A DNA stretch of 54,355 bases, counting the filler, from Basidiobolus ranarum (Eukaryota), in assembly GCA_040143965.1 (NCBI GenBank). It is 4 parts of 4 records of this genome, joined end to end, with 100 filler letters (N's around TTAATTAATTAA, not from the genome) between each part and the next. Parts side by side here need not be neighbours in the genome. Positions count along the whole stretch, not along the records: positions 1 to 13,562 come from JASJQH010007352.1; 3 more parts are not named here. One strand, written 5' to 3'. Positions 1-40,902 of this stretch are shown in pieces. Position 1 is the stretch's first letter; each line of letters begins with the position of its first letter. Position numbers and translations under genes: made by a program. Below the pieces are notes generated by a model, which worked only from the letters and a program-made list of their open reading frames with translations, made no database searches and was not told the DNA's origin.

Positions 1-234
1 GTAACGAGCATCAGCCCAATCAGTGCATTGGCCGTTGTCGAAGCGAAACTGAAGAGGACAGGCGTAGAGGTCAGTAAGGCCAGGGAGCTCACTTTGTAAG
101 TCAGATACTCCGGTGTTGTTAAATGTTGGAGAGCTAATGGATTTTGCGGAAGTTGGAAGAGCTTGCACGGCCAGGCCAAAGAAGCTAGAAGTAGCCAACA
201 TGGCGCTAAGCAAGACTGAGGTAACTTTAATCAT
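1..234 (-). CDS. Secreted CHAP-domain amidase, copy 1 (N-terminal part only; runs off the contig start)
   Basis: Not in the ORF track. ATG at 234 reads MIKVTSVLLSAMLATSSFFGLAVQALPTSAKSISSPTFNNTGVSDLQSELPGLTDLYACPLQFRFDNGQCTDWADARY, colinear with the 1236..1787 protein. Bases 1-111 are identical to 1554-1664. Confidence 0.9.
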   Translation of the reverse strand, partial: MIKVTSVLLSAMLATSSFFGLAVQALPTSAKSISSPTFNNTGVSDLQSELPGLTDLYACPLQFRFDNGQCTDWADARY

Positions 235-541
235 GTTTTCGAATGTGGAGTAAGACTATTGATGCCAGACTGGTGGTTCCGTATTTATATACAATCACTT
301 CCGTGGTTCGTTTCAATCCATCGTTTTCTCTTGAGATCACATCGCAATATTTACTACCAAATAAAGATTCAATCCATTTTAATCGAGTTATTCTGGTCCA
401 GAACCGATCCCATATGTGGTAAGTACTTCTTAGATCCAATATTTTTTATGTATATGGTATTTCGTAGATGGTACTTCGATCCTTCGCTTACCTATTATAG
501 CTAGTGGCTTGAAGAAAGAGGCTAGTTTAGATGTTCGTTTC

Positions 542-610
542 TAGCAGTCTAACTATCCGTGATCTGACAAATAGCAGTTTAACCGTCCGTGATCGGGCAA
601 ATAGCAGTCT
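542..610. repeat. Imperfect 30-nt tandem repeat, about 2.3 copies
   Basis: tagcagtctaactatccgtgatctgacaaa / tagcagtttaaccgtccgtgatcgggcaaa / tagcagtct. Confidence 0.85.
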
Positions 611-1235
611 CTTATTTACTTCAAAAGATTCAAATCACTATCATATCTCCACATCGTAACTTCCATTATACCATTGTGAGAATTGATTCGCCCTACACTG
701 CTAGAGCAAAAAAAACATTAGTTAAGCCTTTACAGTGACTCGTTGTTGGTATAGACATCAATATGTTTCTGTCTGTTCACATTATATTTCACTTACTTTA
801 GGTTGAACGGATTGAAATTGATTGAGGGGCAAGTCACAATCAATCGAACATATTATTGGGCTGCTTTATCAGACAATTCTATAGCTTTATTAGGCAGTTC
901 ATTCTTTTTTACTCAGAATAGAGATACGAAGTAACCAACTACTTGTATAGATCTGCATTCTACTACTATTTGCAGATGTGACGGCTGCTACCTATTTCAG
1001 ATGCTGATACACGTATTAGGTTAACAGGAAATCACAACATTTATTCATTTTCTACCTTCGGTTTAATTCTCACGTATTTTAAACGAAAAGTAGTTAAACA
1101 CGTTCATTCTAACCAGGTATAATTTATTTCTTGTTTTTACTTGTATCTAAAAAATGATGCTGTTACTTACTATAATAATGGCTATCTAACTGTACTGATT
1201 TGGCCTTTGATTTTTGAATATTTCCATAATATAGT

Positions 1236-1787
1236 CTAATATTGAACATCGTCATGCCAGATAAATGATACTCCCTCTCCTGGATAGAAGTTCACGTATG
1301 TAGTAATGTAAGGACCACCTTCTCCATCAATATAGTAGTTCCAGTCACTAGTGTAGACACTGCCGTCATCGTTGATGCTTTCTACAACCGCAACATGGCC
1401 ATACGAGTCGCAGCCTTGATATCCAGGCTGGATAGCAATGATAGAAGGAACGCGTGGCTCGTTGGAGACTACCCAACCCTCAGTGTTCATAGCACTTTCT
1501 GGCCAGGTCTTGGCGTTACCCCACCATTGAACATGGTAGCAGGTGAGTTGGTAGTAACGAGCATCAGCCCAATCAGTGCATTGGCCGTTGTCGAAGCGAA
1601 ACTGAAGAGGACAGGCGTAGAGGTCAGTAAGGCCAGGGAGCTCACTTTGTAAGTCAGATACTCCAGTATTGTTGAATGTTGGAGAACTGATAGACTTCTC
1701 TGAAGCTGGAAGAGCTTGCACAGCTAGGCCAAAGAAGCTGGCAGTAGCCAAAATTGCGCACGACAAGACGGAGGAGGCTCTAACCAT
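1236..1787 (-). CDS. Secreted CHAP-domain (Cys/His-dependent) peptidoglycan amidase/endopeptidase, copy 2
   Basis: Signal peptide followed by CHAP motifs GQCTDWA (catalytic Cys), WGNAKTW, GW-V-x3-P, YGHVAVVESINDDGSV (catalytic His) and SDWNY. Intronless, 183 aa. Confidence 0.92.
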   Translation of the reverse strand: MVRASSVLSCAILATASFFGLAVQALPASEKSISSPTFNNTGVSDLQSELPGLTDLYACPLQFRFDNGQCTDWADARYYQLTCYHVQWWGNAKTWPESAMNTEGWVVSNEPRVPSIIAIQPGYQGCDSYGHVAVVESINDDGSVYTSDWNYYIDGEGGPYITTYVNFYPGEGVSFIWHDDVQY

Positions 1788-3601
1788 TTTAGTTGTAAAA
1801 GTAATTGAATAATGAAAGCAACTCGATCAATGACGCTTTTATATTGAATTGTTTGTTACAACATCCACATTCACTGACCAATCATTCTTGATTTCTCTTT
1901 TTCTGAGCCACGTTCGAATTTCAATTTAGATTTGGGAACTGTGGAAGAGATCCCGATCCTGGTAACAATTTTCAATCGAATTTTCAATCGAATATTCAAG
2001 GGATCCACACTTGGCAGTTTTTATCGTTACTCGATGGCTGCAAATCCTCTCGCTAGCGTAAGCCTATCAAAGCATAAGGGCAAGGCTTACTTTGGTTCTG
2101 AAACTCTCCTCTAAACTCAGCATCCTAAAGTTCACAACAAGTGTGAATCTAGACTCGGTTATTTTGATCTCCAATCGAGGAATGAGATTAGCATCTAAAG
2201 GCAGTTACCGTCCCACTGTATCGGATGAGATAAGAGTAGTTAGTGACTCGCAGTATTACAATTTTTTTACCATTTTAGATTAGATAGATACCAATGTTTG
2301 ATGATCTTGAACTCCTTGAATCTGCTTACTACTTTCCTACCCTACTTCATAGTTCAAGCGGTGGGTAAGAGGTGCAGTCCATCGTTTATTATGATTAACT
2401 CTCACTAAAATTCATTGAACATGGGGAAATCTTATGTATCTGTGCAATATAAACGAAGTCTACATTTATGACTCCGTATTCGTAAAGAATTGGTAATATG
2501 TAGCTACATATATAAGCTGATTAGAGAAGTACTTTGCACCAAAAGTGCTTTGCTTTCTGAACATGGGTACTTAATAGCTTTGGTATTAGGAAATATTTCA
2601 TAAATACTGCTTGAATTTCAAATGGGTTTGTCCGCTACAATTACAAAAGTCAAAGTATGTATGTTGTTGAGTCAGCAGTAATCATTCCCACTAACAAATT
2701 GTTTTTAATACATCCACACGTTTTCTTGTACAAAGAATATTGTGGATCAACTAGGTGCTATGTTCAGTATGCATTATCCAAGTTTCAATTAGAGGTCATG
2801 TTTGCATGAATTATTGCTACGAATATCAGGTAAGCATTATTGTGAAGAAGATGCATGCTCTTTCAATAAGCCACTAGGATGCAGTAAATGTTCACAGTAG
2901 ATACTGACTCCATTTATATTATAGTTAGAAGGTCGTTGAACTCAAGCATTGCTTCTAACAGTATTAAGGTAGAAATGAACCGCTTGTTTTTAGTGTCAGT
3001 TATTATGCACACTTGGAGTATCTATAGTTGTAGTCCTCAATCAGCCCAAGGCAAACCAAATAGAGCGGATGTGATGTAAATAGTATCCGTAAGTTCACCC
3101 TTCAGTGTAAGAGAGTGTTTCTATATTGACAAAGATTTTTCATTACAGCTTAGATAGATAGCTTGCAATATTAGTACTGAAAAATAAAGGCAAATTAGCG
3201 TTCTGAATGCTTCTGTAGGATTACTGAATGATAGAAAAAAGCAATCTGGAAATTATGGCTTCTCCATCTTCATTTTTTCGGAATTGCTCAGTCAAATATC
3301 AGCCTTCCTCATTGGTCATGAATAGTGAAAGTATAAGTTCAAATTAGCGCAACTCAGTACCAGTACTGTATAAGCAGGGAAAAAACTAGCTTCCCTTGAC
3401 TAGTAGAGGAGCGCAAACCGGCCAAAGATATTCCTTAATCCTGTTATGTATGGTTATAGTTGGATCCAAGTAAACATAAACCCTGAGAAAATTTTGTTAT
3501 CATTGGAGGTAGAGATTGCCTCTTGACAACTATGCTTACATAACTGTTATGCAAACTCGGTGATATAATACCAAGCTTGAGAGTCTACCCGGAAGGTTGG
3601 G

Positions 3602-3991
3602 CTTGAGAAATATTCTAAATAAAATATGGAAATTTATAATTCGCTTGGTTAGTCGCTAAGTAGCATTAGATGTATATGAATCACAATGCCGTAGAAGAAT
3701 AATCAGTATTGCAGTGTTTATTAACTATGCACTATAAATGTAACACTACTAAGTACATAAATCCTAATTAGTTAAATCCCAAAACTTAGACCTAGTTGCT
3801 TCTTTATCGATTGCATCTCGACGTTCTGTGAGCGAGCCTTCTGTACTACTTGTAGTTGTACATATGCTACCAAGCACATAATACTGCGTGTTTGGGTGGC
3901 CCAAATTAGAAATAGAATACCAATGTCACAGCACAAACGCCGGATGGTTACGATATTCGACAACCCAAGTGTCTCGTACATCAAGGCTGGT
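3602..3991 (+). repeat. Diverged direct repeat, copy 1 (upstream region of the Cys-rich peptide gene)
   Basis: Colinear blocks shared with 4860-5199: tattaactatgcac, aaatccc-aaactta-acctagttg, gtagttgtacatatgctac, gggtggcc, aatagaataccaat. Confidence 0.85.
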
Positions 3992-4024
3992 TCCAACTTT
4001 CTCTACTGGAAACAGATGCGCCAA

Positions 4025-4032
4025 TATATAAA
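4025..4032 (+). promoter_or_regulatory. TATA box of the small Cys-rich peptide gene
   Basis: TATATAAA about 45 nt upstream of the ATG at 4074. Confidence 0.6.
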
Positions 4033-4073
4033 CTGATACTGGCCATCGTATCGTATCATATCAACCAACTATC

Positions 4074-4265
4074 ATGAAGTTCTCTCCTCTCCGTGTGATC
4101 TTAGCTGTTATTACCGTGGCAATTGCTGTCGAAGGTCAAGCCGCCTGTAGGGATGCATGTTCTAGTGCTACAACCGCCTGCCTATCCAAATGCCAAAAGG
4201 GCCAGTACAACTGTAACCTATCCTGCATCAGCTATGGTAACTCTTGTCGCGATAGGTGCACCTAA
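4074..4265 (+). CDS. Small secreted cysteine-rich peptide (8 Cys; CX3C-X6 periodicity)
   Basis: Signal peptide MKFSPLRVILAVITVAIAVEG, then a 42-aa mature part with CX3CX6CX3CX6CX3CX6CX3C. TATA upstream and AATAAA near 4309. Confidence 0.88.
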   Translation: MKFSPLRVILAVITVAIAVEGQAACRDACSSATTACLSKCQKGQYNCNLSCISYGNSCRDRCT

Positions 4266-4859
4266 ATCTATGTTGTTATAAGAGCGAAAATAATGTTACA
4301 TGACCGGAAATAAAATTCACCGTCACTTCGAAAATGTTACATATCAGATAGATCAACTGAAGTAGATCACTATTACTATGATATTAGAACTTCCTAGCTA
4401 TAAAAATAATTCAAGTGTCAAGGCGACGCAATTCAAGCAATGTACTTCATCGGTTGATATGCAGATGTAGCACTAACCCAAAGGTATACATAGCGTATTT
4501 AATATCTTGAAAGCAATGATAGAAAGAGCCTAATTAGCTTTGTAGGATTCATTACTACTTCTGCAAAGCCAAATACTGCAGCATCGCCTATGGAATGCTC
4601 CTTGACTGAAGTATATTGTTCTTCGGCAGTACGAAGTTCATCTGTTCACTATCACACTATCTCTAATTAGTCGAAAGACTCAGTAACCCAAAAGCATATC
4701 AGTAGTAATATTAATATGGGCAGATGTCTATCATCACCTGGGTACCTGCTTTGAACAGTCATGATTCTGTATAAATCAGCTTTTGGAGGCCAAATATGCT
4801 TATGATACAAAACTCGACGTTCTAGTACCTAGCAAAACCGTTTACCACGAGTGACTAGA

Positions 4860-5199
4860 CTTGAGAAGATATTCTAGAATCACTATTAGTAACTAAGTAG
4901 TATTGATTGTATGTAAACACAATGCTGTTGAGTAATAATCAGTGCTACAATGATTATTAACTATGCACCATAAATGTCACACTACCGAGTAAATATACCT
5001 TAATTAGTGAAATCCCGAAACTTACACCTAGTTGTTTACAGCTTACATACTACGAGCAAGTCTCGTAGTTGTACATATGCTACATTTTGTAGTGTGTCTG
5101 GGTGGCCAAAATTGGTAATAGAATACCAATAGCAGGGTGTAAAAGTCCAATAATGACAGTATTCCACATCCCAGGTACCATGAACATTGAAGCTTGATT
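4860..5199 (+). repeat. Diverged direct repeat, copy 2 (no gene follows)
   Basis: Homologous to 3602-3991. Similarity ends just before the position of the TATA box. Confidence 0.85.
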
Positions 5200-5987
5200 A
5201 AATTAATAATAGTATACTAAGGTCACAGCAAATCATGATGTTGCTTTGTAGAGATAAGGGATCGTTGATGTACATATTTGACATGCACTAGCACTCATAT
5301 CTGCATTCGCATTTTTTGCATTTATCTTTTCAAATGACAATATCCTTGCATTTACTCAACGTACTAACTTGATATACCTTACTTTCTTAATAACTATGCA
5401 AGATTTCTGACTTGCAGGCCGCTTTGAAGTTCTCAGCGCAAACAATCTAGTCAAACGATACAACTTCAGGTCAAAAATATTGATAGTCATAAGGTCGTAT
5501 AGATGTCATAAAGAGATCAATATTGATCATTAACTTCAAGTTGTCATATGCATTATGTTCAAGTAACACATAGCAGGGATTCCTCAATTAGCTGCATATT
5601 GATTTTAGCTTTGAACATAAAGTTCACATTGACACTGAGCTATAATTCTGTATCTAGCTTTTATCATAATAATTTGATACGGTTACATCTGGCTTTACTC
5701 TTTGTGTTTTCTATTTACATCATATGACTTTTCTCGTCATAGGAAATCCAACTTTTCTTTCCTGTATATTTATTAGCAAGTTGGGAATTCATAAAGAATG
5801 AAGTGGCTATTGGCACAGTTCATCCCACTGCGCTGCTGTTATTGTTATTTGCGTTCACCGTAATATCTGCCCTAAGCTCTTGTATGTACTACCAATGAAA
5901 TCTCAGTTAATAAGTTACAAAACCCGGATAAATTGCTATAAAATAGGAATAACCTTGTTTATTACTACCCCTATGATTTCTAAACTG

Positions 5988-7305
5988 TTACTCCGCCCCG
6001 TTGCAGTGACGTTTATCAACAAAATGCTTCATCTTGGCACCTGTTCGCCCTTTCTCTACCTGATCATAGGTAGTTGGTACGATAATAACATCCTCAGAAT
6101 GTTTTACTTCCAACAGATCCACCATTTTTTGATGCAACAACCGTAGAACACTATCAGAGACGACTCTAAAAATTACCCGAAAAGTAAGAGTATCTCGCTT
6201 CCCCGAGGTATCCTCAAATACAGCTTGCCAGTCCAATATATTCCACTCTTCTTTTTGTAGCTCTTGTTCCAACTCTAGAGGGTTGAAGTAATCCCCTTGA
6301 AAATTCACTGATTTTACTGGGTTTCTCCCATATAATCGTAATACAGCTAGACTTCGACCATTAGTCGATGCATCGCCAGAGTAGCTATGTAATGAACCCA
6401 AGTCACCAGTACAATAGCGGATCAACGGATTACGTAATCTCATCAATGAAGTCAATACGATCTCTCCCGCTTCCCCCTCTGCCACGTGAGTACCATCCTC
6501 TTTGAGAATCTCAACTATCATCATATTTTTGTCGTAAATGAAATCGGACCGCTGAGCGACATCTTGGTTAAGTTTAGCAGCCCAAACCCCTCCTTCAGCA
6601 GACCCATACACGGACGTAATGACGCTAGCTCCGAATATGGTCCTGAGATAATTTTCTTGATGCAATGGTAACACTTCCGATGAATAAAAAATCTTGTCAA
6701 AGTTTACGAATGATTGCAATCCATTCGCTTCTATATATTGTGCAAAGCTGATCATTTGCGTACACGTGCCCGATATAGCATTAGCACTAAACTGTATAGA
6801 AAGGTTTACAAGAATATCTGGGGAAGTGCTTGCACCAGCCGCGAGAGCCGTACCATGAGAGTTCTCAATTAATTCACATATTAAATCCAAGGATCTAAAG
6901 AGATTATTAAGTGGATTAGAGTGTAATCTTTTTCGTTCTTTTAAAATAAAGTTAGACTAACCTGTACATGTACCTACCGCCGTGGATCACTAGTACAATA
7001 TCTTCTTTTGTAATCACATTTTGTTCATTCATAAATCTACCCATTTCTTCCCTTTGTGCTCTGTTTTCATGAGTATCTGTGATGAAATATAACAAAGGAC
7101 CGCTGGAAGTCCCACCGGTGGGGCTGAGATAAGCAGATTGAAGAATAGACTTGTCTGCTTTGACGGCATATTGGATTTGGTTGTAGAGAGTGACTTTGTC
7201 TAGAAGAGGAATGGCTGCCAAGTCTAACTTGCTCGGGTACTGGAGCGAAGCATAGAGAGGGTGTTTAGCCCCCGAAGAAAGCACTTCTTCCAGACGGTAC
7301 AACAT
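5988..7305 (-). CDS. ANL-superfamily adenylate-forming enzyme, phenylacetate-CoA ligase (PaaK)-like; candidate amide-bond synthetase. Exons 7305-6962 and 6894-5988 (about 416 aa)
   Basis: P-loop-like SPTGGTSSGP, YGSAEGG, GEIVLTSL, PLIRYCTGDLG. A GT-AG intron at 6961-6895 joins the two ORFs in frame (YMYR-SLDL). TATA near 7336-7343 on the minus strand. Confidence 0.88.
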
Positions 7306-7599
7306 TGATGACAATATCAAGTGTATGGCCAAGTGTTTATATAGTGATGGCGAAGATTTTCAAGGTCATCAGCGATGATTTCCCTCTATACTAACACAAT
7401 GGAATCACTAGGAGATCTTTATACATATAGAGTGCTAAGACCAGTTACGCCAGGTTACACAGCATAAATTTGGTATTGAAAATATCGTAAATTGACTTGG
7501 CCATCGATACGTATTTTGTTCACTGAATCTCCTCAAACTTTAGTTAATAAAAGTGGCTCTCCAATTGCAACCTTGCCCCTGCGTGGTCGGTCCTTTTTT

Positions 7600-8169
7600 A
7601 AACAGAATGTACTCATCTTGTCCTCCTGGTGCTGATCTGTATCGAATAGGGATAAAAAACAGACCTTTTAAAATTCTAATTCGTACAAAGTATACTTTTA
7701 ACTCGGTTGCAATTTTGATTCAAAACTTCATCAAATATTTCCCCAAACTATACCCTTTCATCCTCAGAACTTCACTCGTCCTTTATCTATTTGAACTTCA
7801 TTCCAACATTCATGGATGCTATTATGCACGAAAAAGTTATCAACAAATCACTGCCCTTAGTTTGTCCATCACATATAGGACATAATATATCCAACACCGA
7901 AACCATCATTTCACACCACCAAACCCTTTCCAAATCACTTTGTGTAATAATATTCTGCATCATGTCTGAAGCACCATGACAAATCAAACAATCCATCTCC
8001 ATCTCCCCAAATCTTAAATCTTGGCTCTTCTCGAAACAGGTTGCCTACTAAACGCACGCTTAGAACCAGATGGTATAGTCTTATCCTTTATTTGATGCAG
8101 AAACGCCAAATAATGTGCCGCTCCTACCAACATAGGACTCTGTACCATGTTCCCATAAATCCCACATAT
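7600..8169 (-). pseudogene. Degraded fragment of a divergent multisubunit-type RNA polymerase (beta/RPB2 C-terminus, possibly running into beta-prime-like sequence); probable virus or linear-plasmid origin
   Basis: Minus strand reads ICGIYGNMVQSPMLVGAAHYLAFLHQIKDK...SRQPVSRRA, frameshift near 8020, then LRFGEMEMDCLICHGAS...QSD..RVWWC...CPIC...ASMNV. This parallels RPB2 [57 protein letters not shown]..AMNI. Confidence 0.85.
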
Positions 8170-8434
8170 TCCGCATCATACCAAGTATTGCCTCATCCGC
8201 TGTAAATGATATCTGATCCATTGCTGATAGCTACAAGGGTAACAGTAACGCTCACTCACGTGTGATTTATGGGGCTTGTGTCTTATATTTACTGGCTTCA
8301 CACAAACATTCATGATTGAAAGATCAATACTAAATTTGGCCTTAGCATTTTTTATGCTTATAAATTTCCACTCTGAAGCACCAAATCACACAACCAACAT
8401 TAGTGAGGATTCCATTACAAACTTGTGAATTGAA

Positions 8435-10705
8435 ATGTCGTTTTACCAGGTGCTCCCTTCTCCTTACGTGTCTCATCAAGAATATTGCCAAGAGCAGAGA
8501 AAACTCTTGATAGCTTCCGATAGTGACTGGCCATACTCTATCCACCTGTTAGCGAATCCGTACCCTATCTTTTGTCCTGCACATAGGATGCAAGAGATGA
8601 AGAACTTGCAATCTGCCATCCATGAGGGGCTACATCTTATTATCGATTCGTGGTGGAGCGAGCCGGAATTTTATAACGCAATACCAGTGCCGGCAAAATT
8701 AGAAAACGTATTAAAGAGGCTGGCCATCCATAGACCGTATGAGGTAGGATCTTACCGACCCGATTTCCTTGTACCCGAAGACGACAATGCGCCTATACAA
8801 GTATGCGAAATAAACTGCCGATTCATGTTCAATGGATTTCTAATGGCGCAATACGTTCAGAAATCCATTGAACCTTGGATTGATGGTCAAATATTTGGTG
8901 CCGTTGAAGGAAGCGCCAATGATAATGTAAGTTCAGAAATTTATCCAATTCAAATAAGAGACTCTCAGTAACATTTTTACAGATTCCATCGCAGTTTCTG
9001 CAGCTATTTGATCCCGCCAAGCCCCTGGTTCTTATTAAGGGACGTGAACAAGGATACAGCATACACCTTTTCCAAAGGTGGTTTAAAAATTCGCGGTTTG
9101 CCGATCCTTCTGAGTTGGCTATTGTTCCTGATCCTACTTCAGCAACCGGGTATCAATTAGTTGATCGAGTGGGTGTAATTGAGCAATGTGCGCTGGAACT
9201 CCACCAAGCCGAGTTGGAAGCATTGGACGATGATCTTTTGTTTGAATTGGGAATGAGATGCTTCAACGATTTAAGAACTGTCACCTTGGCTCATGACAAA
9301 CGAATGCTGGCATTACTACAGAGCGATAAGCTTAGATTGCTTGGATTATCTGATTCTCATCACCAAGTGTTACGCGATGGCATTGCGCCAACATTTTTAC
9401 CAACGGATGAACAATTCCACATAGCAGCAACGGAGAATCACTTTGATCCCAATGACTGGCTACTAAAAGCTTGTCGACTCGGTAAAGGAGAGGGAATTGT
9501 GTTCGGAAGCGATGCTAGTAAAGAGGAATGGCAAGCTTTAGCCAAATCTCAACTGGAATTGCATATCCCGGATAATTTCCGCAATTTGGGTAGTTTTGAA
9601 ACACCAGTGTATATCCTACAACGTCGAATTAAACAAAAAATATTTCGTTTATTGATATCCAACGAGGGCTCAAAGGATCCGAAAACGTGCCACTGGTCCG
9701 TTGTTGGCACATTTCCGTGCATCAATGATACTTTCCTTGGAGCAGTTCCATGGCGGTCCTCTTCTGGAGATATTATTGCTGTATCTCGAAATGGAACGTG
9801 GTTTCCAGGCGTGACTCCCAATGGAGGGTATAGCCAAGTGGAACCTAAATATTCGAAAAAGAAATCATGGGAAGTTCCGAAAAGTGCCAAGCTCACCACA
9901 GCTGGGGTATTACCATCTCTATCAGAAATCTCGGAAGTTCAAACGGCATTAAAGAAGCACGGTTTCGCGTTAATTAAGCTAACTGAACCTGATCCTGAAA
10001 GTAGTTATGTTCTGTCAGTAGCAGAAGCCATTGGAGTACCCATTGAGCACTCTTCAACTCATGGCCCTTTGTGGGATATCAAGCCCATAGCAGGAGGATT
10101 AGCTCGATCGCAGACAGATAAAGAGTTTGAGTGGCATACGGTAAGTTATGAAAGTGTTAATGTAAGATCGTATTAGCATAAAACTGAATCCTGGTCAATT
10201 TGAAATTTTATAGGACTGCTCTTATGTGCCAGAGCCACCACGCTACTTCGGGTTGCATGTTCTTCATTCTGATAAGATGGGAGGAGGTACCTTACAGTTG
10301 TTACGCGTTTCCACATTATTGGAATCTCTGTCGGCATCAGTGCTGGCAACTTTATCTCGGAATGATGCGTTTCGTATAATGGTTCCTCAAGAGTTCTACA
10401 GTGGTACCTCCAACATCATCGCATCACTGATAAGTTCGGATATTGATGAAGGGTACTTGATGCGTTTTCGGAGGGATATCATTGAGCCATTAGATTCCGA
10501 AGCTAGAGAAGCTTTACAACAACTTGAGCTAGCATTAATTCGTGCCGAAGAAGATTTTGTCCACTCATTAACTAGTGAGGTCATGGATGATTCCACAGTT
10601 TTGATTGTAGATAATTGCAAGTGGCTACACTCACGTACTGGAGTGAAGGATCAGAACCGTTGGTTGCGACGAGTAAGGTTCGAATCAAAACCCAATCAAT
10701 CGTAA
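8435..10705 (+). CDS. Fusion of an ATP-grasp-like (glutathione/glutathionylspermidine synthetase-type) ligase and a C-terminal TauD/clavaminate-synthase-like Fe(II)/2-oxoglutarate dioxygenase. Exons 8435-8926, 8983-10140, 10214-10705 (about 713 aa)
   Basis: N part: YRPDFL, VCEINCRF, NDLRT..LAHDKRML, WLLKACRLGKGEGIVFG, YILQRRI. C part: HTD facial motif formed across intron 2 (WHT-DCSY), GGGTL, IVDNCKWLHSR, RWLRRVR. Both GTAAGT..AG introns are phase 0 and keep the frame. TATAAA at 8359. Confidence 0.9.
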
Positions 10706-10793
10706 GCCAATACAGGAATGTTACCAACAGTCATTTGCTGACATAGAAGCAAGAAAATAGGCAAGATGCATATATAAGCAAATTTAATCTAAT

Positions 10794-10848
10794 GAACTTA
10801 GCGAAACAGATTACCCATCTACGAACTTAGCAAAACATATTACCCATT
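10794..10848. repeat. Imperfect 29-nt tandem duplication downstream of the stop codon
   Basis: gaacttagcgaaacagattacccatctac / gaacttagcaaaacatattacccat. Confidence 0.75.
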
Positions 10849-11289
10849 TGTACACCCTTACTGGTACTATACCAATAAGATATAATAATAAATCACTTGT
10901 TTCAGGGCGATGTCAGCTCTAGATTTTCACACTGAATCTGCCAAGAAAAAATCAAGAGATAGCTGTCTATGCAGAGTAATTAGAATTATTTCATGTAGAT
11001 ACAGATAATTGGAATATGCATTTTACCTTTCGATTATACTCATAGTCTATATATCTTACCTGTCTTCTAGTTAAACATTGTTATCAGACTAATATATCGC
11101 TTTGTGACTTTAGATGATTGCCATAGAACTTGAATGTACTCCTGATTAATCCATTGGAGTTTGCTAATGGCTTGTACCACATGAAATAATAGTATCCAAG
11201 TCACTGGCCACATGTCAATCCATTCTGCAACAGCTTGCTTACTTGATCACGGTTTGTGTAACGCAATTACCGCGGTTGGATGCAGATGA

Positions 11290-12240
11290 GCAATGTAGAA
11301 ATATCAACCCATGCCAATCATAAAAAAGTCGGATAGTAATTGCATAATTTATTTTTAGGCCCAAGTGTTATGTTTGAATAATGATGTATATTGCATTGGT
11401 AGAGTTAGGGAAACGGTAGTTGTGGCCCATTTGGCGAATTCTTGAGCAACTTTGAGAGTTCGTTTTCCAATTTTCAACTAAAGAAAGTAGACTATCAACC
11501 CTAACTCTAAGCATAGAGGTAACTAGTAAGATAAGGAAAGAATATTCTTATACCTACCTAACTGCTACTCTTTGTCATATTAAAATTCTGCTGGACAAAG
11601 GCGAAACAATCTCGATCAACAATTTACTTCGTTTAGATCTGGTTATGCTGCCAAGGAAGGTAGTGAACTTAGGTTTTCAGTGGGTAACCTGGTCCATTTG
11701 ATTTCAGCGTTGTTGTATTGTCTCGTGGACATATATACCCCTGCCATTGGTAATACGCAACATGATTCACGATAGCATGATCGCAGTTATTAGGTGCTAT
11801 TACCATTCATGAAATAAGAACCTGTTATTTCACTGCTACTTGAACGTAAGTATTGGCCAACATAGTGACTTGTTACATAGTTCTTCAAAGGGGTGGGAAG
11901 TATACTTCTGCTTGATTTAGAAATCCTACTGGTAATCATACTTGAGTGATTCTGGGGGAACTTTCTGAATCAAGTTACATATCCTGTGTATAAACGCTGT
12001 CCCCATTTAATCAGTTCACTACTTTTATTCAAGGTGGCTGTAACAAGTTTAGGCCTATAAGATAAACTAGTTTGGTGAAGAAATATGAGGCGAGATGTAC
12101 TTGATAAGCAAGAATATTGGGTTTGGTAGCATTTATGCTGGAAACTAAGTGGCATTGTATTCGTAAAATTAAGGTGATTTAATGAAAAATTAGCCGCATA
12201 ATGTAATACGTTGCGTACCAGTTTGATGGTGAACAACTCT
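11290..12240 (-). mobile_element. Possible heavily degraded LINE APE-endonuclease region
   Basis: Fragmentary motifs in the expected order: LIFLHQT (cf. LQET), EVYFPP (cf. VYxPP), TNGRG. Many stops and frameshifts; boundaries approximate. Confidence 0.35.
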
Positions 12241-12553
12241 CAACATTAGATTAAGTCATGGCTAGAACACCGTCATAAAGAATTCTCAATAGCGTCATGA
12301 AATGAGTAATATTCCATAGGAACATTAACGCTGTTAATAATTTTATTCACATCAGTCATCACGTGCTACTTAGAAGATCTATAATACATGAGGTTCAAGA
12401 GAGGCTTGCAACACGACACGAAACGAGTACTTAAAACCCTCAACACGGCAACTTTAACATTGTACTTTTCATCACTTCGACAAAGCTCATAGCATGCCTA
12501 CTTTCACCGAATCTTTATATCATTGGGTCCCAGTATAGAATGGTGAAATTAGC

Positions 12554-13562
12554 GGGATGAAAAGCACCATATGGTGTGAGCTTTATTTAGCTTAAATCCT
12601 AATCTAAACAAAGTGACAATCAAGACATTAATCTTTTAAGATATTGTGACAATACTGCATCATATCCATACTTAACTTGATGACCAATGTATTCAAGTTC
12701 AGAGGATGTAAATATGGTATTAAGGGGCAGAGGTAGCAAGCTGAAAGGAAGGTACTCAGTACAAACTAGATGGACAATAGAACAAAAACCTGGAATAATG
12801 GGAATCAAGAAAGGTGTCTTAGAGGCAAGGTATTGCTTCCAAAGGTCTAGCTGGAAGTCTATAGCAACAATTTTAGGCTGTTTTTTTTCATGCAGCTGTA
12901 AAGCCAACTCAGCAACAAGAGGATCATCTTGTATCAACTTCCAGCATGATAGTGCATTTGACGATGGTGTGGCTAGCCACTTCTTAATCAGTGGATTTCT
13001 ACAGTCATTTAGTTGGAGTAGAAATCTTGCCCTGAGTAAAACTACTCTAATATAATATGGGAAAAATCCAAAAGTTTCATTCAGAGCATGATCATAGGGA
13101 GTCTCAGGCAAGTTAGGCATCAGCAGCCTGAGGCAGTAGCTGATGAATCTATCAAGCTTACAGTAGTCTCTTTGGTTGAGTGGGAGCAGATGTACTCCAT
13201 ATTCCAGAACTGGTATCACAAACTCCTTGAGAAGTCATTAATAGCCATAATAAGATGTATTGGATGGTGTAACAGCAAGTAACTTGTGAACAGCCTGTTT
13301 AGCCAAAGCAATTCTAAATGACAAGCGTTTCTTCACATCAATGCCAGTTTGAGTAAATGGAAAGCCTAGATATGTTGCATGGCTCATATGAAGAAGCTGA
13401 GTATCATACAAGGAAATAGTGCAACCAATTAGAACTGTTTTGGCAATAGAAAGCTCCAAGTTATTTTCTGAAAGGTATCTCTGAATAGTAGCAGTATCCA
13501 GCTGAGGCTGAGAAGTAGAAACTCTGATATCATCAGCAAATAAAGTAAGCAGAGATCCAGGG
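12554..13562 (-). mobile_element. Non-LTR retrotransposon family A, 3' part of the RT ORF plus 3' UTR (disrupted; cut by the contig end)
   Basis: One frame reads LFADDI...TYLGFPF..GID...IPVLEYG, with in-frame stops near 13235-13240. Second copy at 27314-28020. Confidence 0.88.
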
Positions 13563-13662
13563 NNNNNNNNNNNNNNNNNNNNNNNNNNNNNNNNNNNNNN
13601 NNNNNNTTAATTAATTAANNNNNNNNNNNNNNNNNNNNNNNNNNNNNNNNNNNNNNNNNNNN
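13563..13662. other. Artificial contig spacer
   Basis: N44-TTAATTAATTAA-N44 (stops in all six frames). Confidence 0.99.
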
Positions 13663-16600
13663 CTGGCTGAGCTCTTTGAAGGGAGACCAATGTAGCTCGC
13701 TGATTCTCTTCAGCTTCTCGTCTTAATTTTGCTAAAGCTCGCTCAGATCGATCATGTGTAGAGCGCAATTCATTAAGCTGAGTTTCAAGAGTCTCCTTAA
13801 TCTGCTCTAGCTCTACAGTTCTCGTTTGAACATCTGAAAGTTCGGTTTGAAGTAATCTATTAGTCGCCACATGCATGTCAATTTCATCTTGAAACCGAGC
13901 CTCCAATTCATTGATAACTCGAGGATTATTGGGATTAGATTCATCGATCACCCCTCCTGTCCATTTACTCCGGAGCTGTTGATAGAAACTTCCTCTTCTT
14001 TCAGGAGAGTTGACAATCGTTGCCCTTCTGGCAATAGTGAATGACTTGACTTTGTCACGGATCTTCAGATCCATATCCTTAAGTTTAGAATCGTAGAGTT
14101 GCTTTTGTGACGCCAACTCCAATTCCTTAATTCTTAAATCTTTACCCAAGTCTTCACATCGTTGTTGGGACTCGAGTAGCTGCTTCTCGGCGGTACGCTT
14201 TTCCTTCCAAGTACGAGCCAACTCAGTTTCCAGCTGTTCGGTAAGTGAAACAGCGTCTGCACAAACCTTTTCAGTTGAACTGACTTGTTCTTTGAGACGT
14301 ACAATCCTCTTTTTTGCGACAAAGAGCTCTCTTTCAGATTCTTCAAGTTGCTGTTTACCTTTTGTCTCAATCTCAGCTACGGATTCGCGATATTTTGCTT
14401 GAAGCGTTGTTAATGCATTCATTGACTCGACTTTGTGGGCCTCTAACCGTGAACGAAGCTCTTGCACTTCTCTACCAAGTTTTCCCTCACGAGTTTGTGA
14501 CACCATGATAGTCTCTTGGAAACTGCGACACTGCTTTTCGTAACTTGCTTTTTGCGATTTAAGAGTCTCGATTTCGAGAGCATATAAACCAAGATCACTT
14601 TGAAGCTTACATATTTCTTGGACACTATGGCCAGAGAAAGTAGAAGCACGACCTCTAGTAGAGTCTCTGAAAGATGTAGTAGGGATATTTGATCCAACAT
14701 CTGGTGTGATATTTGGGTCCGCTGTGAGAGTGTCAATGGATGACTCACAATTTCCAAAAGTCAATCTTCGAGTCTCCTCCTTTATCTCAAGAGTAACATC
14801 AGGTTTATCAAAGCACGCAATAACATCTTCAATCTGAGTGGTTGGATCATCCAGTGTATTATTGATATCGGCAATAAACTCTCCAAAGGACTCGCAACTC
14901 TGGTCGCAAGTAATCAACTGAGCTATAGTAACTTTCAACTTGTTCTTAAATAACTGCAATTGGTCATCCATATCTCTCCGCGATGCTTGAGCTATGCGCA
15001 CCTGAGCTTGTACCTCCGCAAGTTTGTTGGTCAGTTCAGTCATGGAGTAAGGAAGTGCTTTCCGGCCTTCATTACCATCAGATTCGTCATCTAAAGCTAC
15101 TGCTGAATCACGGTCATGATCGAAACTGGACACACTACTTCTAGAGTTGCTAATATCGATGGCTTCTAATTTTTCCGGTATTGAAATCCGGGTTGTGTTG
15201 ATTTGAGCTAGGTCTTGACGTTCTTCAGAATCGCGATCAATTATAACTTTAGTAGACATCTTTTCGACATTCTCCAGATTTTTCATGACGGACTCTGCTA
15301 TCTTGGACTTTTCTATTTCTTGAACTTCGAGATCTCTCTGTGCACACTGAAGTTCCTGCTTCAACTTTTCTATGCTCTCTTCCAATACGTGTATGCGATT
15401 CGAAGACTCTACAACTAATTGCGTCTTTATCTCCAGCTCCCCTTGGAGTGACGAAACAGCATCTAAGAGGTCATGCTCCTTCTTTTGTGCCAATATCTCA
15501 AGTTTCTCTTGTTCAGTAGCATTTTGTCTCAAGTCATTTAGTCCTTTTTGAAGTTCGTTGGATTCCTTTAGCAACGTACCTGCCTGGGTTTCTAACATCG
15601 CAAGGTGCTTATTTCTCTCGGTTACCCAAGTTTCCATTTGTTGCGTTACTGAATCTATAATGGAGATTAGATTTGGAGATGTGGAAGCTGTTTGCTCCTC
15701 TCGTACTAGTGTACTAGATAAGTGTGCATGATCCGGGTCAATATCAATCCCGCAATCCAGCATAGATTGGATATGAGCAGAAAGCGCTATGCCCATCTGC
15801 TTGATTTCTGAGGTTTGACCTTGAAGTTGATGTTTCCAAGCACTCTGATCAGTTTGAAGATTTTGAATTTCAAGATTCTTGACTTCAAGTATCCCCTGGA
15901 GCATCTCTAACGTCGCTTCAAGCTTGTTGACTCGGCTTTCCATGGTAGATAACTCGTCTTTACTAACACGAAGAACGGATTCCTCTTGAGATTGGCTAAT
16001 GCCTAATTCTTGAATCTCCGATAACTTTTCATAAACTGAAGATTCAAATAAGTAAATTAACTTTTGCTGCTCTGCCAAAGTGAGCACAGCATGGTCAAAT
16101 TCTTCAGCTAGTTCAAACAAGCATTTGAGGTATTCTTTTTCCTTAACCTCAGCTTCCGTAAGTTCGGCGGTCAAGGAGGAAATCTTCTCTTCTTTTTGAT
16201 TCGTTAGATCTATATTCTCTTGGATATACGCCTCTAACAGGATTACCCGGGTTTCATTTTCTGAAAGAGATTTATCCTTTTTCTCAAGTTCTACATTCAT
16301 ATCATATAGAGCCCTTAGATACTCTTTTTCCAAAGTATCGTAGTCATCGAGTTGTTGCCGAAGTTCGGAGATCTGAGGAACGTCGACTGTTTCTTTAGAG
16401 GTCAACCGCTCCTGAATAGCTGACTCAAGTAAACAGATAGATCTTTCGTAATCAAACTGCACTTGTCTTGCCAAAGAAAGCTCTTGGTTCAACTCTAATA
16501 TGGTCATATAGTAGTCTTTCTCCGCAATCTCGAATTCCATAGAGTCTGGCTGCGATCTATGCAGTTCCTCAGCATTGATATTCTCAATGGCATCAACCTT

Positions 16601-18970
16601 TGGCTCAATGGCCCTAAGATTCTCCGAAGTGGCATTTAAAGCTGTCTCTTGCATATCTTCGAGTTCACGTTGGAGTTTTAATACCGTTTGCTCCAGAACA
16701 GTCTCTCTTTTCTTAGCATGGGAAAGTGATTCAATCGTTTCATCTAGTTCTGATTTCATACTCATAATGTCAGAGTTTACTGAATCATCAGATGTAGATT
16801 TCTCTAATTGAATACTAAGATCCCTTATAGTCGAGTCAAATAACTCAACTTTTTTGAATGCGCTATCAAGTACGGCCTTAGTTTTCTCCAGCTCAAGGTT
16901 CAGTTGAATAACTATTTGATTGTGCTCGCGCTCATTTTCCTCTGCGATTGATAGTTTTTCTTGGGTTTTCAAAAACTCGGCTTTCAAATTCTGAAGCCCT
17001 CCTTCCAGATCAAAAGTTGGACTCAACTCCTGGTCTTCAATGTGCAAACCCAAATCACACACAAGACTTTGAACAAGACTAGTCATTTGGTCTAATTCGT
17101 CGGAGTTCGCTGGTATACTACGCTGCTCATCTCTTTGAGCTTGAGATTCGCTTTGTTCTTCGACTAGTTTTGAGAGCTTATCAGCTAACATGTCGATTTC
17201 TTCTCTCTGCTTTGCGACCATGAGTGTCAACTCAGATTCTTTGGCTTCAGAAATTGAGTATCTCTCCTTGAAACTGGCTATTGTCAATTCGCTCTCTTTT
17301 AACTTCGAATGAACCGAATCTATATAAGACTGGCCAAAATTGGCATGTTCAAGTTTTTCTGCCAGTCGTTCGGTATGTTCAACTACAAGCTGAAGATGAA
17401 TCTTTTCGTCTTCTAATTCAGTGACCATTCTATGATTAATAAGCGACAATGATTCCTCTCTTTGCTTTGCTTCGCTTAAGCTCGCTCTGAGAGCATCTAA
17501 TTGTTGATTTAAACTTTCATTGATACTCTGTTCGTTGACCACATGGTCAACATCTAGGTCTTGAATATCCTCGTCTTGTAAAGAAAGCATGGTAGTTATC
17601 AACGCTTCAAGTAAGCGTTCTCTGCTACTTGCTATTGCAAGGGTATGGCCAATCTCCTTGTATTCAGCATTCCAAGCACCAGCCATGGAATAAAATTGAG
17701 TCTCACGACTCTCATACTCCTGCAAGCACAGTTGAGTATTCTTGAGTTGCTCTTGAAGCTCGGATATCCTATCATTATATATTGAAATTTCATGATCAAA
17801 ATTGGATTTAACCTCGAGTTCCAAAGTCTTGTATCTCTCCTCTATTTCTGCGTTGTGTCGTGTTAACTGCTCATTCTCAGCTTGAATAGCCACAATACTA
17901 TTGTTGAGTAAAATCTCATGTTGCTGACTCTCGAATAGTTGTTGTTGAACAGCTTCAAACTGTTGATTTAATTCGAAGATGGCCTTGGTGAATTCTTGTT
18001 CACGGGAATCTACTTCAGGAGCTGGAACATTCGGTTGGCTCTGGTCTTCAGTAAACTTCTCATCCTGAGATTTTTCACTGAATTGTTGTTCTGCTTCCTC
18101 GGATTCATATCTGGGCCTTTCTAAATCTTCATCCTCAAGTGAGGCTTGACGATCCTTTCGGTCTGGGATGGTATCATTCTTGGTTTGTGTTTTCGGCCTG
18201 GGGGAATGAGATTTGCATTCCAGATTCTCAGTATTGGCTTTCATATCGGTGACTATTTCATTGATATATGCTTTTAAATTATCCTGGAAAATCGCGAAAT
18301 GGTCCTCAATTAAACTCCTATCAGCCTCGGATATCGTTGAATTACTTAAAATTTGACCTTTAATACCAGTTGCTTTGCTCAGTACCTCTTCTTCAAGAGT
18401 TTCGATATGGTTCAAATAACCTCTACTATAAGCTAACGGATTCTTTGATTCGTTTGCTGAAATCAAAGCAGACTCTGATTTAAAAGCATTCTCAGCCATT
18501 TCACCTTTTGAGATCACACGGGTATGCTCTAAATCGCCAGTATTTTTGGACCCAAGAGTTAGAACCCCAAAGCATCGATCAAAACCCTCCAATAGAGGCC
18601 GAATATTTTTCACTCTTTGCTTTAATATGGCCTTGGCAAGAGAATAATCCTCAAGCTCTTCAACAGTAGATTGTTGTTTTAGAGTTGGTTCCTCTTCTTG
18701 TTTACATTGAACGTTCTGCTCTATAGGTTGTGAAATGCAGTCTTGAAGTTCAAGTAAAACATCTTGAAGTTCTTTAACATTAAGCTTCTCAGTAGTTTCT
18801 TCTTGACTTTCAGTTCGCCCAATAATCAAAGACATAAGCTCCACTTTCTCCTGTACACTAAGAAACACCTGTGAATAAGTGGAACCCTTGGTCTCAACAA
18901 TTGGAGATATTGGGGAATTTAAGGCTTCTTCTGGTTTCTCTATAGTTTCCTCATGTTGTAAACCCGACAT
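13663..18970 (-). CDS. Very large acidic coiled-coil protein (>1760 aa; 3' end missing), function unknown
   Basis: Uninterrupted 5.3-kb ORF rich in E/L/Q/K heptads with no recognisable catalytic motif; runs into the contig gap. Confidence 0.9.
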
Positions 18971-27213: not shown

Positions 27214-27313
27214 NNNNNNNNNNNNNNNNNNNNNNNNNNNNNNNNNNNNNNNNNNNNTTAATTAATTAANNNNNNNNNNNNNNNNNNNNNNNNNNNNNNN
27301 NNNNNNNNNNNNN
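27214..27313. other. Artificial contig spacer
   Basis: N44-TTAATTAATTAA-N44. Confidence 0.99.
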
Positions 27314-28871: not shown

Positions 28872-29104
28872 TTCCTTATTCGCGCACCCTGAGCTCAATG
28901 CGTACCATTTTCATATAAAAAAGACGTCTGGGCCGAAATGGCTATGGCTAACCCGGAGCAAGATATCTCAGGCACATAATTGTTTAATCAATTGGCCATA
29001 AGTGGCATCTGATGATTAACCACAAATGTAAAAAGGAAACGGGGATTTCGTTTACGCGAAGATGATCCAATCTGCTAGTTAATATAAAGCTGATTAAAAA
29101 TTCC

Positions 29105-40796: not shown

Positions 40797-40896
40797 NNNN
40801 NNNNNNNNNNNNNNNNNNNNNNNNNNNNNNNNNNNNNNNNTTAATTAATTAANNNNNNNNNNNNNNNNNNNNNNNNNNNNNNNNNNNNNNNNNNNN
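40797..40896. other. Artificial contig spacer
   Basis: N44-TTAATTAATTAA-N44. Confidence 0.99.
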
Positions 40897-40902
40897 CTAC
40901 AG

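What the first reader, a model, noticed from the sequence alone, without database searches (positions are those of the whole stretch)
5988..10705. Two-gene NRPS-independent biosynthetic cluster with E-64/dapdiamide-type logic
Seen: two divergently transcribed, intact, spliced genes supply three activities, namely a PaaK-like adenylating enzyme, an ATP-grasp-like ligase and an Fe/2OG dioxygenase. Known, from recall: the fungal E-64 (epoxysuccinyl cysteine-protease inhibitor) pathway uses an Fe/2OG oxygenase on fumarate, an ATP-grasp ligase and an adenylating amide-bond synthetase. The bacterial dapdiamide pathway likewise uses DdaC, DdaF and DdaG. Inference: this is a minimal cluster making an oxidised diacid-amino acid-amine pseudopeptide in an apparently early-diverging fungus. 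NRPS/PKS-centred mining would miss it. No decarboxylase, transporter or regulator is on the contig, so the amine would come from primary polyamine metabolism.
Basis: partly seen in the sequence, partly recalled or inferred. Interest (0 to 1): 0.85.

Follow-up and report, generated by a model that had tools for sequence, protein, structure and literature searches.

The report
Fused E-64-type protease-inhibitor gene pair
Two back-to-back genes in the fungus Basidiobolus ranarum encode the three enzymes of the recently solved E-64 (cysteine-protease inhibitor) pathway, two of them fused into one protein, so the fungus probably makes an E-64-like compound.

Summary
Gene A (5988-7305, minus strand, one intron) and gene B (8435-10705, plus strand, two introns) are intact, divergent and translate exactly to two annotated Basidiobolus ranarum proteins.

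- Gene B residues 9-441 match the solved E-64 ligase Cp1B (PDB 9cjn, E 1.8e-53), with all four catalytic residues kept.
- Its C-terminal TauD domain is 40% identical to the oxygenase of a canonical oxygenase-ligase-decarboxylase-ANL cluster.
- Gene A belongs to the ANL clade that travels with these two enzymes, apart from true PaaK ligases.

The three activities sit together in 10 of 16 bacterial loci and in 11 of 20 long metagenome loci. They are fused in every order among database relatives. Four fungal-like contigs repeat the same divergent two-gene layout and share exact intron positions.

New here are the Cp1B-oxygenase fusion, which the E-64 paper's text does not mention, and the host, an early-diverging fungus. 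The product is unproven.

The window is four contigs joined by N spacers. Only 1-13562 is linked to the pair, so absence of a decarboxylase or transporter is weak evidence.

Verdict: real, largely explained by 2025 literature, a variant of a known pathway. Interest is moderate.

The parts
5988..6894 (-). Gene A (ANL, CpD-type amide bond synthetase candidate), exon 2 including the TAA stop. It carries YGSAEGG (aa 211), CTGD (aa 276), GR (aa 304-305) and Lys402.
6895..6961 (-). Gene A intron, 67 nt, GT..AG, phase 2 in the Arg codon of 'MYR'. L041 and L042 have an intron at the same position and phase.
6962..7305 (-). Gene A exon 1, from the ATG at 7305. It carries the P-loop-like TGGTSSG (aa 63).
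7306..8434 (.). Shared divergent intergenic region of 1.13 kb, the presumed bidirectional promoter. The one ORF of 110 aa or more that was scanned there (7544-7882) gave no Pfam family.
   Evidence: inference
8435..8926 (+). Gene B exon 1 (aa 1-164): start of the Cp1B-type ATP-grasp domain, with R108, D110, E125 and N127.
8927..8982 (+). Gene B intron 1, 56 nt, GT..AG, phase 0.
8983..9822 (+). Gene B exon 2, first part (aa 165-444): the rest of the Cp1B-type ATP-grasp domain (ELHQ 236, HDKRM 268, GKGEG 331).
9823..9858 (+). Inter-domain linker (aa 445-456, pLDDT below 50), inside the same exon.
9859..10140 (+). Gene B exon 2, last part (aa 457-550): N-terminal half of the TauD-type Fe/2OG oxygenase domain, ending with W-H549-T.
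10141..10213 (+). Gene B intron 2, 73 nt, GT..AG, phase 0 between T550 and D551 of the iron-binding HxD motif. L019, L021 and L024 have an intron at the same position.
10214..10705 (+). Gene B exon 3 (aa 551-713 plus stop): C-terminal half of the TauD domain, with D551, H689 and R699/R703.

Best explanation
The locus is a two-gene version of the E-64-type (cpA/cpB/cpD) pathway, which works without a nonribosomal peptide synthetase (NRPS).

Gene B encodes one polypeptide with two domains.
- The C-terminal TauD-type Fe(II)/2-oxoglutarate domain (CpA-like) is inferred to epoxidise fumarate to trans-epoxysuccinate.
- The N-terminal Cp1B-type ATP-grasp domain is inferred to activate that diacid as an acyl phosphate and join it to an L-amino acid.

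Gene A encodes a CpD-type, PaaK-fold adenylating enzyme. It is inferred to adenylate the free carboxylate of that pseudodipeptide and amidate it with an amine, probably a polyamine from primary metabolism.

The expected product is an epoxysuccinyl-(amino acid)-amine that inhibits cysteine proteases. If the oxygenase step is bypassed, the product would be a fumaryl or malyl analogue.

Shown here: gene structure, domain identities, conserved catalytic residues, and co-conservation and fusion of the three activities. Inferred: substrates, order of steps and product.
For: (1) Gene B aa 9-441 against PDB 9cjn 'Ligase Cp1B': E 1.8e-53. The predicted structure (pLDDT 85.9) has 9cjn as best fold match, E 4.1e-34, TM 0.77 on the target.

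(2) The residues the paper shows to be needed for Cp1B activity (R139, D141, E163, N165) align to R108, D110, E125 and N127.

(3) The TauD domain keeps H549-x-D551, H689 and R699/R703, which are conserved in A5.
- It is 40% identical (E 9e-46) to the oxygenase of metagenome locus L034. That locus has the published layout: oxygenase, ligase, PLP Orn/Arg decarboxylase, ANL, plus an MFS transporter.
- It is 39.8% identical (E 1.9e-50) to the TauD part of P0006, whose first 463 aa are the Cp1B orthologue (E 2.5e-241 to 9cjn).

(4) The ANL falls in a clade of 23 cassette-linked ANLs (SH-aLRT 100) apart from 8 PaaK-type rows. It matches ANLs next to the ligase in bacterial loci at E 1e-16 to 3e-57.

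(5) Co-conservation.
- All three genes are adjacent on one strand in 10 of 16 bacterial loci.
- Of 46 metagenome loci, 14 hold all three; of the 20 that are 10 kb or longer, 11 do.
- L020, L021, L041 and L042 have the same layout, with the ANL divergent from a ligase-oxygenase gene.

(6) Fusions among the 150 best representatives: B-A 47, B-A-D 10, A-B 4, A-B-D 1, B-D 1.

(7) The paper shows that cpA, cpB and cpD are sufficient and that the decarboxylase is dispensable.
Against:
- I never held the Cp1A or Cp1D sequences. The A and D assignments go through proxies (L034, L037, P0006 and named ascomycete ANLs).
- Identity to the characterised system is modest: about 30-33% for B, 40% for A and 31-37% for D.
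- The four residues lining Cp1B's proposed amino-acid pocket (F175, V228, V477, I488) align to M137, Y189, P420 and V431, so all four differ.
- The paper notes that Cp1B and Cp1D homologues also occur in clusters that are not E-64-like, and that AnkG is a related ligase of about 30% identity in another pathway. AnkG could not be compared.
- The nearest solved folds of the TauD domain are amino-acid hydroxylases (KDO1, AsnO, OrfP, VioC), so another oxygenase substrate is possible.
- In 5 of the 20 long metagenome loci, B and A occur without an ANL in the stretch held.
Confidence: 0.75

Rival explanations
1. The enzyme families are the same but the chemistry differs. The TauD domain hydroxylates or desaturates an amino acid or another acid rather than epoxidising fumarate. 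The two ligases then build a different pseudopeptide with no epoxide warhead.
For: The closest solved folds for the TauD domain are the amino-acid hydroxylases KDO1, AsnO, OrfP and VioC. All four proposed pocket residues of Cp1B differ. The paper says Cp1B and Cp1D homologues occur in unrelated clusters, and that AnkG is a distant relative in another pathway.
Against: The TauD domain is 40% identical to the oxygenase of a locus with the canonical layout (L034). By sequence it matches AsnO- or VioC-type chains only at E 0.39 or worse. The paper reports that a cyanobacterial homologue at only about 20% identity still makes trans-epoxysuccinate. All three cassette activities are present together, here and in relatives.
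Confidence: 0.17
2. The pair is a silent or decaying relic: the sequence is intact but it is not expressed and makes nothing.
For: No expression evidence could be obtained. The contig is short and ends in a retroelement-like fragment. The related fungal-like loci L018 and L020 are flanked by retroelements.
Against: Both reading frames are open with canonical splice sites. Every catalytic motif checked is intact. A second ANL copy at 83% identity is also intact.
Confidence: 0.06
3. The ANL is an ordinary phenylacetate/aryl-CoA ligase of catabolism that lies next to gene B by chance.
For: The fold and the best solved-structure matches are PaaK-family. NCBIfam lists PaaK and other CoA-ligase models.
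Against: It scores 36.9 bits on the PaaK model against a cut-off of 646.3. It lies in the cassette-linked clade, separate from PaaK rows. ANLs of this clade are adjacent to or fused with the ligase and oxygenase in bacteria, fungal-like contigs and triple-fusion proteins.
Confidence: 0.02

Closest known systems
E-64 biosynthetic cluster cp1/cp2 of Aspergillus flavus and A. oryzae (Cp1A Fe/2OG epoxidase, Cp1B ATP-grasp, Cp1C PLP decarboxylase, Cp1D ANL amide bond synthetase); Liu et al., Nat Chem Biol 2025, PMC12568646
   Same: The three essential activities come from homologous families. There is a direct match to the Cp1B crystal structure with its catalytic residues kept. The route needs no NRPS. 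The decarboxylase is dispensable in the published system and absent here.
   Different: The ligase and oxygenase are one polypeptide (B-A), not two proteins. The unit is two divergent genes, not three or four. Identity is only about 30-40%. All four proposed amino-acid pocket residues differ. The host is Basidiobolus (Zoopagomycota), whereas the paper's text names Ascomycota, Mycena and cyanobacteria.
Bacterial three-gene cassettes.
   Same: The same three families are adjacent on one strand, in the order B-D-A or A-B-D.
   Different: The bacterial genes are separate and lack introns. They are 27-34% identical to the Basidiobolus proteins. In the ligase tree they lie outside the fungal clade that holds Basidiobolus. 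I could not confirm that these loci are equivalent to mfa.
Eukaryotic glutathione/homoglutathione synthetase and YgiC/YjfC-type ATP-grasp ligases
   Same: The fold of gene B's N-terminal domain (Foldseek E about 1e-14 to 1e-12).
   Different: No family-level sequence match. The acid substrate and the partner domain differ.
PaaK-family adenylating enzymes that make amides or esters without CoA (NatL2, AjiA1, ClxA)
   Same: The compact PaaK-type ANL fold. They set a precedent for CoA-independent bond formation in this fold.
   Different: Their substrates are aryl acids and they sit in bacterial benzoxazole pathways. No close sequence relationship to gene A was shown.
Dapdiamide pathway DdaC/DdaF/DdaG of Pantoea (named from recall)
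   Same: The same kinds of enzyme build a warhead-bearing pseudopeptide from fumarate.
   Different: This is analogy only. The order of steps differs (recalled, not from a call), and the E-64 paper states there is no sequence similarity between Cp1D and the bacterial synthetases. It was not tested here.

Membership tests
E-64-type cpA/cpB/cpD cassette | Cp1B-family ATP-grasp ligase | tested here: met
   phmmer against PDB 9cjn gives E 1.8e-53 over aa 9-441. 9cjn is also the top Foldseek match, E 4.1e-34.
E-64-type cpA/cpB/cpD cassette | Cp1B catalytic residues R139, D141, E163, N165 | tested here: met
   They align to R108, D110, E125 and N127. The residue list is from section 8 of the paper.
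E-64-type cpA/cpB/cpD cassette | CpA-type Fe(II)/2OG oxygenase with an intact iron and 2OG site | tested here: met
   H549-x-D551, H689 and R699/R703 are conserved. The domain is 40% identical to the oxygenase of the canonical-layout locus L034 and 39.8% to the TauD part of P0006. Cp1A itself was not available.
E-64-type cpA/cpB/cpD cassette | CpD-type ANL enzyme | tested here: met
   It sits in the clade of cassette-linked ANLs. It is 31-32% identical to the ANL of L034 and 37% to that of L021. Motifs and Lys402 are conserved. Cp1D itself was not available.
E-64-type cpA/cpB/cpD cassette | The three activities are encoded side by side | tested here: met
   Window 5988-10705. The same linkage is seen in 10 of 16 bacterial loci and in 11 of 20 metagenome loci of 10 kb or more.
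E-64-type cpA/cpB/cpD cassette | Makes trans-epoxysuccinyl-amino acid-amine | not testable with these tools
   Needs expression and LC-MS.
E-64-type cpA/cpB/cpD cassette | PLP-dependent decarboxylase (CpC) in the cluster | tested here: not met
   No Pfam hit on contig 1-13562. The paper shows CpC is not essential and is not conserved, so this is not a defining feature in the strict sense.
Phenylacetate-CoA ligase PaaK (TIGR02155) | Score above the curated equivalog cut-off | tested here: not met
   36.9 bits against a cut-off of 646.3, for exon 2 alone, which is 301 of 416 aa. It also forms a separate clade.
TauD/TfdA family (PF02668) | Pfam gathering score | tested here: met
   Exon 3 alone scores 28.5 bits against 27. 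The precomputed Pfam annotation of the whole protein lists PF02668.
Dapdiamide Dda system | Homology to DdaC, DdaF and DdaG | not tested
The paper reports no similarity for the ANL.

The most novel reading that the evidence does not exclude
The unit 'ANL divergent from a ligase-oxygenase fusion' is an old, intron-bearing fungal module. It was either inherited or passed between fungi as a unit. It is shared by Basidiobolus and early-diverging Pezizomycotina, and it is distinct from the three-enzyme Aspergillus system.

Fusing the epoxidase to the ligase hands the reactive epoxysuccinate straight to the next active site. In some eukaryotes the whole pathway has collapsed into one B-A-D polypeptide.

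In Basidiobolus, a vertebrate-gut commensal and occasional pathogen, the product would be a new E-64 analogue with a different amino acid, acting on gut or host cysteine proteases.
Probability: 0.3. Interest if true: 0.6.

Novelty: new variant of a known kind. Interest (0 to 1): 0.45.

Why it matters
E-64 and its relatives are standard cysteine-protease probes and drug leads, and their enzymes are being used for combinatorial biocatalysis.
- A natural ligase-epoxidase fusion, and the triple fusions seen in passing, would be ready-made single-protein catalysts. Their altered amino-acid pocket could widen the range of accessible inhibitors.
- The locus extends this NRPS-independent pathway to Zoopagomycota. 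Published surveys of secondary metabolism in that phylum looked only for NRPS, PKS and terpene genes.
- Shared intron positions give a handle on whether such clusters are ancient in fungi or move between them.
- Basidiobolus lives in vertebrate guts, so a secreted cysteine-protease inhibitor would be a testable factor in that association.

Tried and rejected
- Whole-genome search of the window's own assembly: none is held. Paralogues and a second cluster copy could not be sought. Only a second ANL (P0016, 83% identical, on a 3.3-kb contig) is known.
Most rows in the trees therefore have no organism.
Splicing and co-expression remain untested.
- Supplement of the E-64 paper: the main file is a PDF without text, and the three files held as text had no hits. 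I could not see the accession numbers for Cp1A and Cp1D, the cblaster table, or whether fused forms or Basidiobolus are listed there.
It was repeated with the closer set A5.
- Earlier findings of this scan: nothing for this place or this sequence. A word search returned two unrelated notes.
- Organism of the EukProt triple fusion: no paper holds its accession prefix.
- Bacterial origin by recent transfer, the usual story for Basidiobolus: rejected for this locus. In the quick ligase tree Basidiobolus sits inside a fungal set of 20 rows (SH-aLRT 98) with Rhizina, Peziza and Wilcoxina, and bacteria lie outside. The ANL tree agrees. Intron positions are shared with eukaryotic contigs. Both trees are quick searches with no bootstrap and no AU test.
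- P0006 and similar Aspergillus or Metarhizium 'fusions': P0006 lacks the last 40 or so residues of Cp1B and may be a merged gene model. I used it only as a proxy.
- No complex prediction was run, because I make no binding claim.
Full report
**What is in the sequence**

The stretch 5988-10705 holds two divergent genes.
- Gene A is on the minus strand. It starts at the ATG at 7305, has one 67-nt GT..AG intron (6961-6895) and stops at 5990-5988.
- Gene B is on the plus strand. It starts at the ATG at 8435, has GT..AG introns of 56 nt (8927-8982) and 73 nt (10141-10213), and stops at 10703-10705.

A script that joined the exons from the window file gave translations identical to two database proteins. 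These are P0015 (416 aa, 'hypothetical protein K7432_008520 [Basidiobolus ranarum]') and P0001 (713 aa, K7432_008521).

The boundary between gene B's two domains (linker aa 445-456) lies inside exon 2, a single open frame (8926-10176). The fusion is real and is not a splicing artefact.

**A caveat about the window**

The window contains three N44-TTAATTAATTAA-N44 spacers, at 13563-13662, 27214-27313 and 40797-40896. The first segment has exactly the 13,562-bp contig length reported for both proteins. The window is thus four contigs placed end to end, and only 1-13562 is physically linked to the pair.

On that contig, ORFs of 65 aa or more outside the pair gave only two Pfam hits: a CHAP domain (1239-1826, minus strand) and a weak reverse-transcriptase match at the very end. 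It rests, however, on flanks of 6 kb and 2.9 kb.

**Identity of the three activities**

*ATP-grasp ligase.*
- Exon by exon, Pfam and NCBIfam found nothing for the N-terminal 550 residues of gene B. This fits the E-64 paper's remark that Cp1B has no detectable Pfam domain (PMC12568646, section 6).
- Against solved structures, aa 9-441 match 'Ligase Cp1B' (9cjn) at E 1.8e-53.
- The four residues whose mutation abolishes or attenuates Cp1B activity (R139, D141, E163, N165; section 8) align to R108, D110, E125 and N127.
- An AlphaFold model built on 28 sequences (pLDDT 85.9, pTM 0.64) has 9cjn as its best Foldseek match (E 4.1e-34), followed by glutathione and homoglutathione synthetases.

*Oxygenase.*
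- The C-terminal domain is TauD-type. Exon 3 alone scores 28.5 bits against the Pfam cut-off of 27.
- The iron ligands H549-x-D551 and H689, and R699/R703, are conserved among the fused relatives.
- The nearest solved folds are KDO1, AsnO, OrfP and VioC.

*ANL enzyme.*
- Gene A is a distant PaaK-like ANL enzyme. It scores 36.9 bits on the PaaK model against a cut-off of 646.3.
- The best solved matches are PaaK-family chains, at E 3.7e-5 by sequence and about 6e-23 by fold (model pLDDT 84.8).
- The core motifs and Lys402 are conserved.

**Link to the E-64 pathway**

I read the abstract, sections 6-9 and the first part of the extended-data legends of the paper.
- It shows that Cp1A epoxidises fumarate, Cp1B joins the epoxy-diacid to an L-amino acid, and Cp1D amidates the product with an amine.
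- The three genes are sufficient and the decarboxylase Cp1C is dispensable.
- The three-gene cassette occurs in more than 100 fungal species and in cyanobacteria.

I did not hold Cp1A or Cp1D, because the supplement was unreadable. I therefore used context.

Metagenome locus L034 has an MFS transporter, a TauD gene, a Cp1B-like gene, a PLP Orn/Arg decarboxylase and an ANL, in the published A-B-C-D order.
- Its ligase is 45% identical to P0006.
- P0006 is the Aspergillus alliaceus protein whose first 463 residues match 9cjn at E 2.5e-241.
- Its oxygenase is 57% identical to the TauD part of P0006.

Against L034, the Basidiobolus domains are 30% (B), 40% (A) and 31-32% (D) identical.

*Bacteria.*
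- A scan of prokaryotic genomes with an alignment of ligase-only relatives gave 16 loci.
- In 10 of them the ligase, an ANL like gene A and a TauD like gene B's C-terminus are adjacent on one strand. These are L001-L010, from Obscuribacterales, Chloroflexota and Planctomycetota.
- The six more distant loci (L011-L016) lack the TauD. Only L016 has an ANL, a weak match that falls with PaaK in the tree.

*Metagenomes.*
- A scan gave 46 loci: 14 hold all three, 14 hold B and A, 11 hold A only, 5 hold B only, 1 holds A and D, and 1 holds B and D.
- Of the 20 loci that are 10 kb or longer, 11 hold all three, 5 hold B and A, and 4 hold A alone. Some loci are duplicates from different samples (for example L034/L035 and L055/L057).
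- Four fungal-like loci (L020, L021, L041, L042) repeat the Basidiobolus layout, with the ANL on the opposite strand upstream of a ligase-oxygenase gene. L022 keeps only an ANL fragment.
- L018 has 8 kb upstream with a retrotransposon and no ANL.

*Fusions.* Among the 150 best of 904 representative proteins (E up to 0.001), domain architectures were: B alone 63, B-A 47, A alone 24, B-A-D 10, A-B 4, A-B-D 1 and B-D 1. The three activities are thus linked by neighbourhood and by repeated fusion.

**Origin**

- In a quick maximum-likelihood tree of the ligase domain (46 rows), Basidiobolus lies in a set of 20 rows (SH-aLRT 98) with the fused proteins of Rhizina, Peziza and Wilcoxina. This group is next to a group holding Orbilia and the Cp1B orthologue. 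The triple fusions come next, and the bacteria lie outside.
- The ANL tree (31 rows) gives the same neighbours.
- Gene B's second intron splits the iron-binding motif between T550 and D551 in phase 0. The identical position is used in L019, L021 and L024.
- Gene A's intron, phase 2 in the Arg codon of 'MYR', is at the identical position in L041 and L042. Alignment breaks fall at the same residue in L034 and L037.
- These points argue for a shared eukaryotic ancestor of both genes. That means inheritance or fungus-to-fungus transfer, not a recent bacterial acquisition.

**What remains inferred**

- Substrates and product are not shown.
- The residues the paper proposes for the amino-acid side-chain pocket of Cp1B (F175, V228, V477, I488) align to M137, Y189, P420 and V431. 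The amino acid may therefore differ.
- The paper warns that Cp1B and Cp1D homologues also sit in clusters unrelated to E-64, and that AnkG is a distant relative. I could not place AnkG.
- Expression could not be examined.

**Novelty**

- The pathway was published in 2025 and described as widely conserved.
- The words 'fused', 'fusion', 'Basidiobolus', 'Zoopagomycota' and 'Mucoromycota' do not occur in the paper's main text or legends. 'Fused' does not occur in the preprint.
- No paper in the held library contains both 'Basidiobolus' and 'E-64'.
- Searches for epoxysuccin*/ATP-grasp/gene cluster/fungi and for Cp1A/B/D returned no work on the biosynthesis beyond that paper and its preprint; the only other hits naming Cp1B and Cp1D were a MicroED/native-MS study of papain-inhibitor complexes.
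- The survey of Basidiobolus secondary metabolism looked for NRPS, PKS and terpene genes and does not mention ATP-grasp or TauD (passages only).
- The locus is therefore a new lineage and a fused two-gene variant of a known pathway, not a new kind of system. The fused form is itself common in sequence databases (47 of the 150 best representatives).

**Verdict**

Novelty is moderate. Interest is 0.45.

Noticed in passing
window 13563-13662, 27214-27313, 40797-40896: The window is four contigs of about 13.5 kb each, joined by N44 + TTAATTAATTAA + N44 spacers. Features beyond 13562 are not linked to the finding.
   Followed up: yes
window 1239-1826 (-): An ORF of 196 aa has a CHAP domain (Pfam E 1.1e-16), a peptidoglycan-amidase domain typical of bacteria and phages. 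It lies 4 kb from the gene pair on the same fungal contig and may be a horizontally acquired gene.
   Followed up: no
window 13610-18994 (-): An uninterrupted 1795-aa reading frame with no Pfam family fills the start of the second contig. The region has a strongly negative AT skew (-0.12 to -0.21).
   Followed up: no
proteins P0012, P0085, P0086, P0121, P0135, P0137, P0140, P0144, P0160, P0175, P0193, P0220: Single polypeptides of about 1030-1330 aa carry ligase, oxygenase and ANL in the order B-A-D. Ten are among the 150 best representatives, and one comes from a EukProt transcriptome. A-B, A-B-D and B-D fusions also exist. Such a protein would be a one-protein version of the whole pathway. 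The organisms are unknown.
   Followed up: partly
protein P0016 (K7432_016295, 3.3-kb contig): The same species has a second intact ANL that is 83% identical to gene A. This hints at a second copy of the module.
   Followed up: partly
L034 5905-16309: A metagenome contig carries an MFS transporter, TauD oxygenase, Cp1B-like ligase, PLP Orn/Arg decarboxylase and ANL in the published cpA-B-C-D order. It served as a stand-in for the canonical cluster.
   Followed up: yes
protein P0028 ('Jimgerdemannia flammicorona'): This ANL, named for a Mucoromycota species, is the closest neighbour of the one from Tirmania nivea (Pezizales) in the tree (branch lengths 0.21 and 0.27). This could reflect contamination of that assembly or a transfer.
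   Followed up: no
window 13241-13561 (-), 35495-36271 (-): Retroelement remnants: a weak RVT_1 match (E 0.014) at the end of the first contig, and a Retrotrans_gag match (E 4e-5) on the third contig.
   Followed up: no
window 23517-25649 (+), 29066-30373 (+), 40845-41387 (+), 42420-42827 (+): The unlinked contigs carry a homeodomain ORF next to a TRF2/HOY1 PH-like ORF, a DUF3472 ORF, ankyrin repeats and a metallo-beta-lactamase-fold ORF.
   Followed up: no
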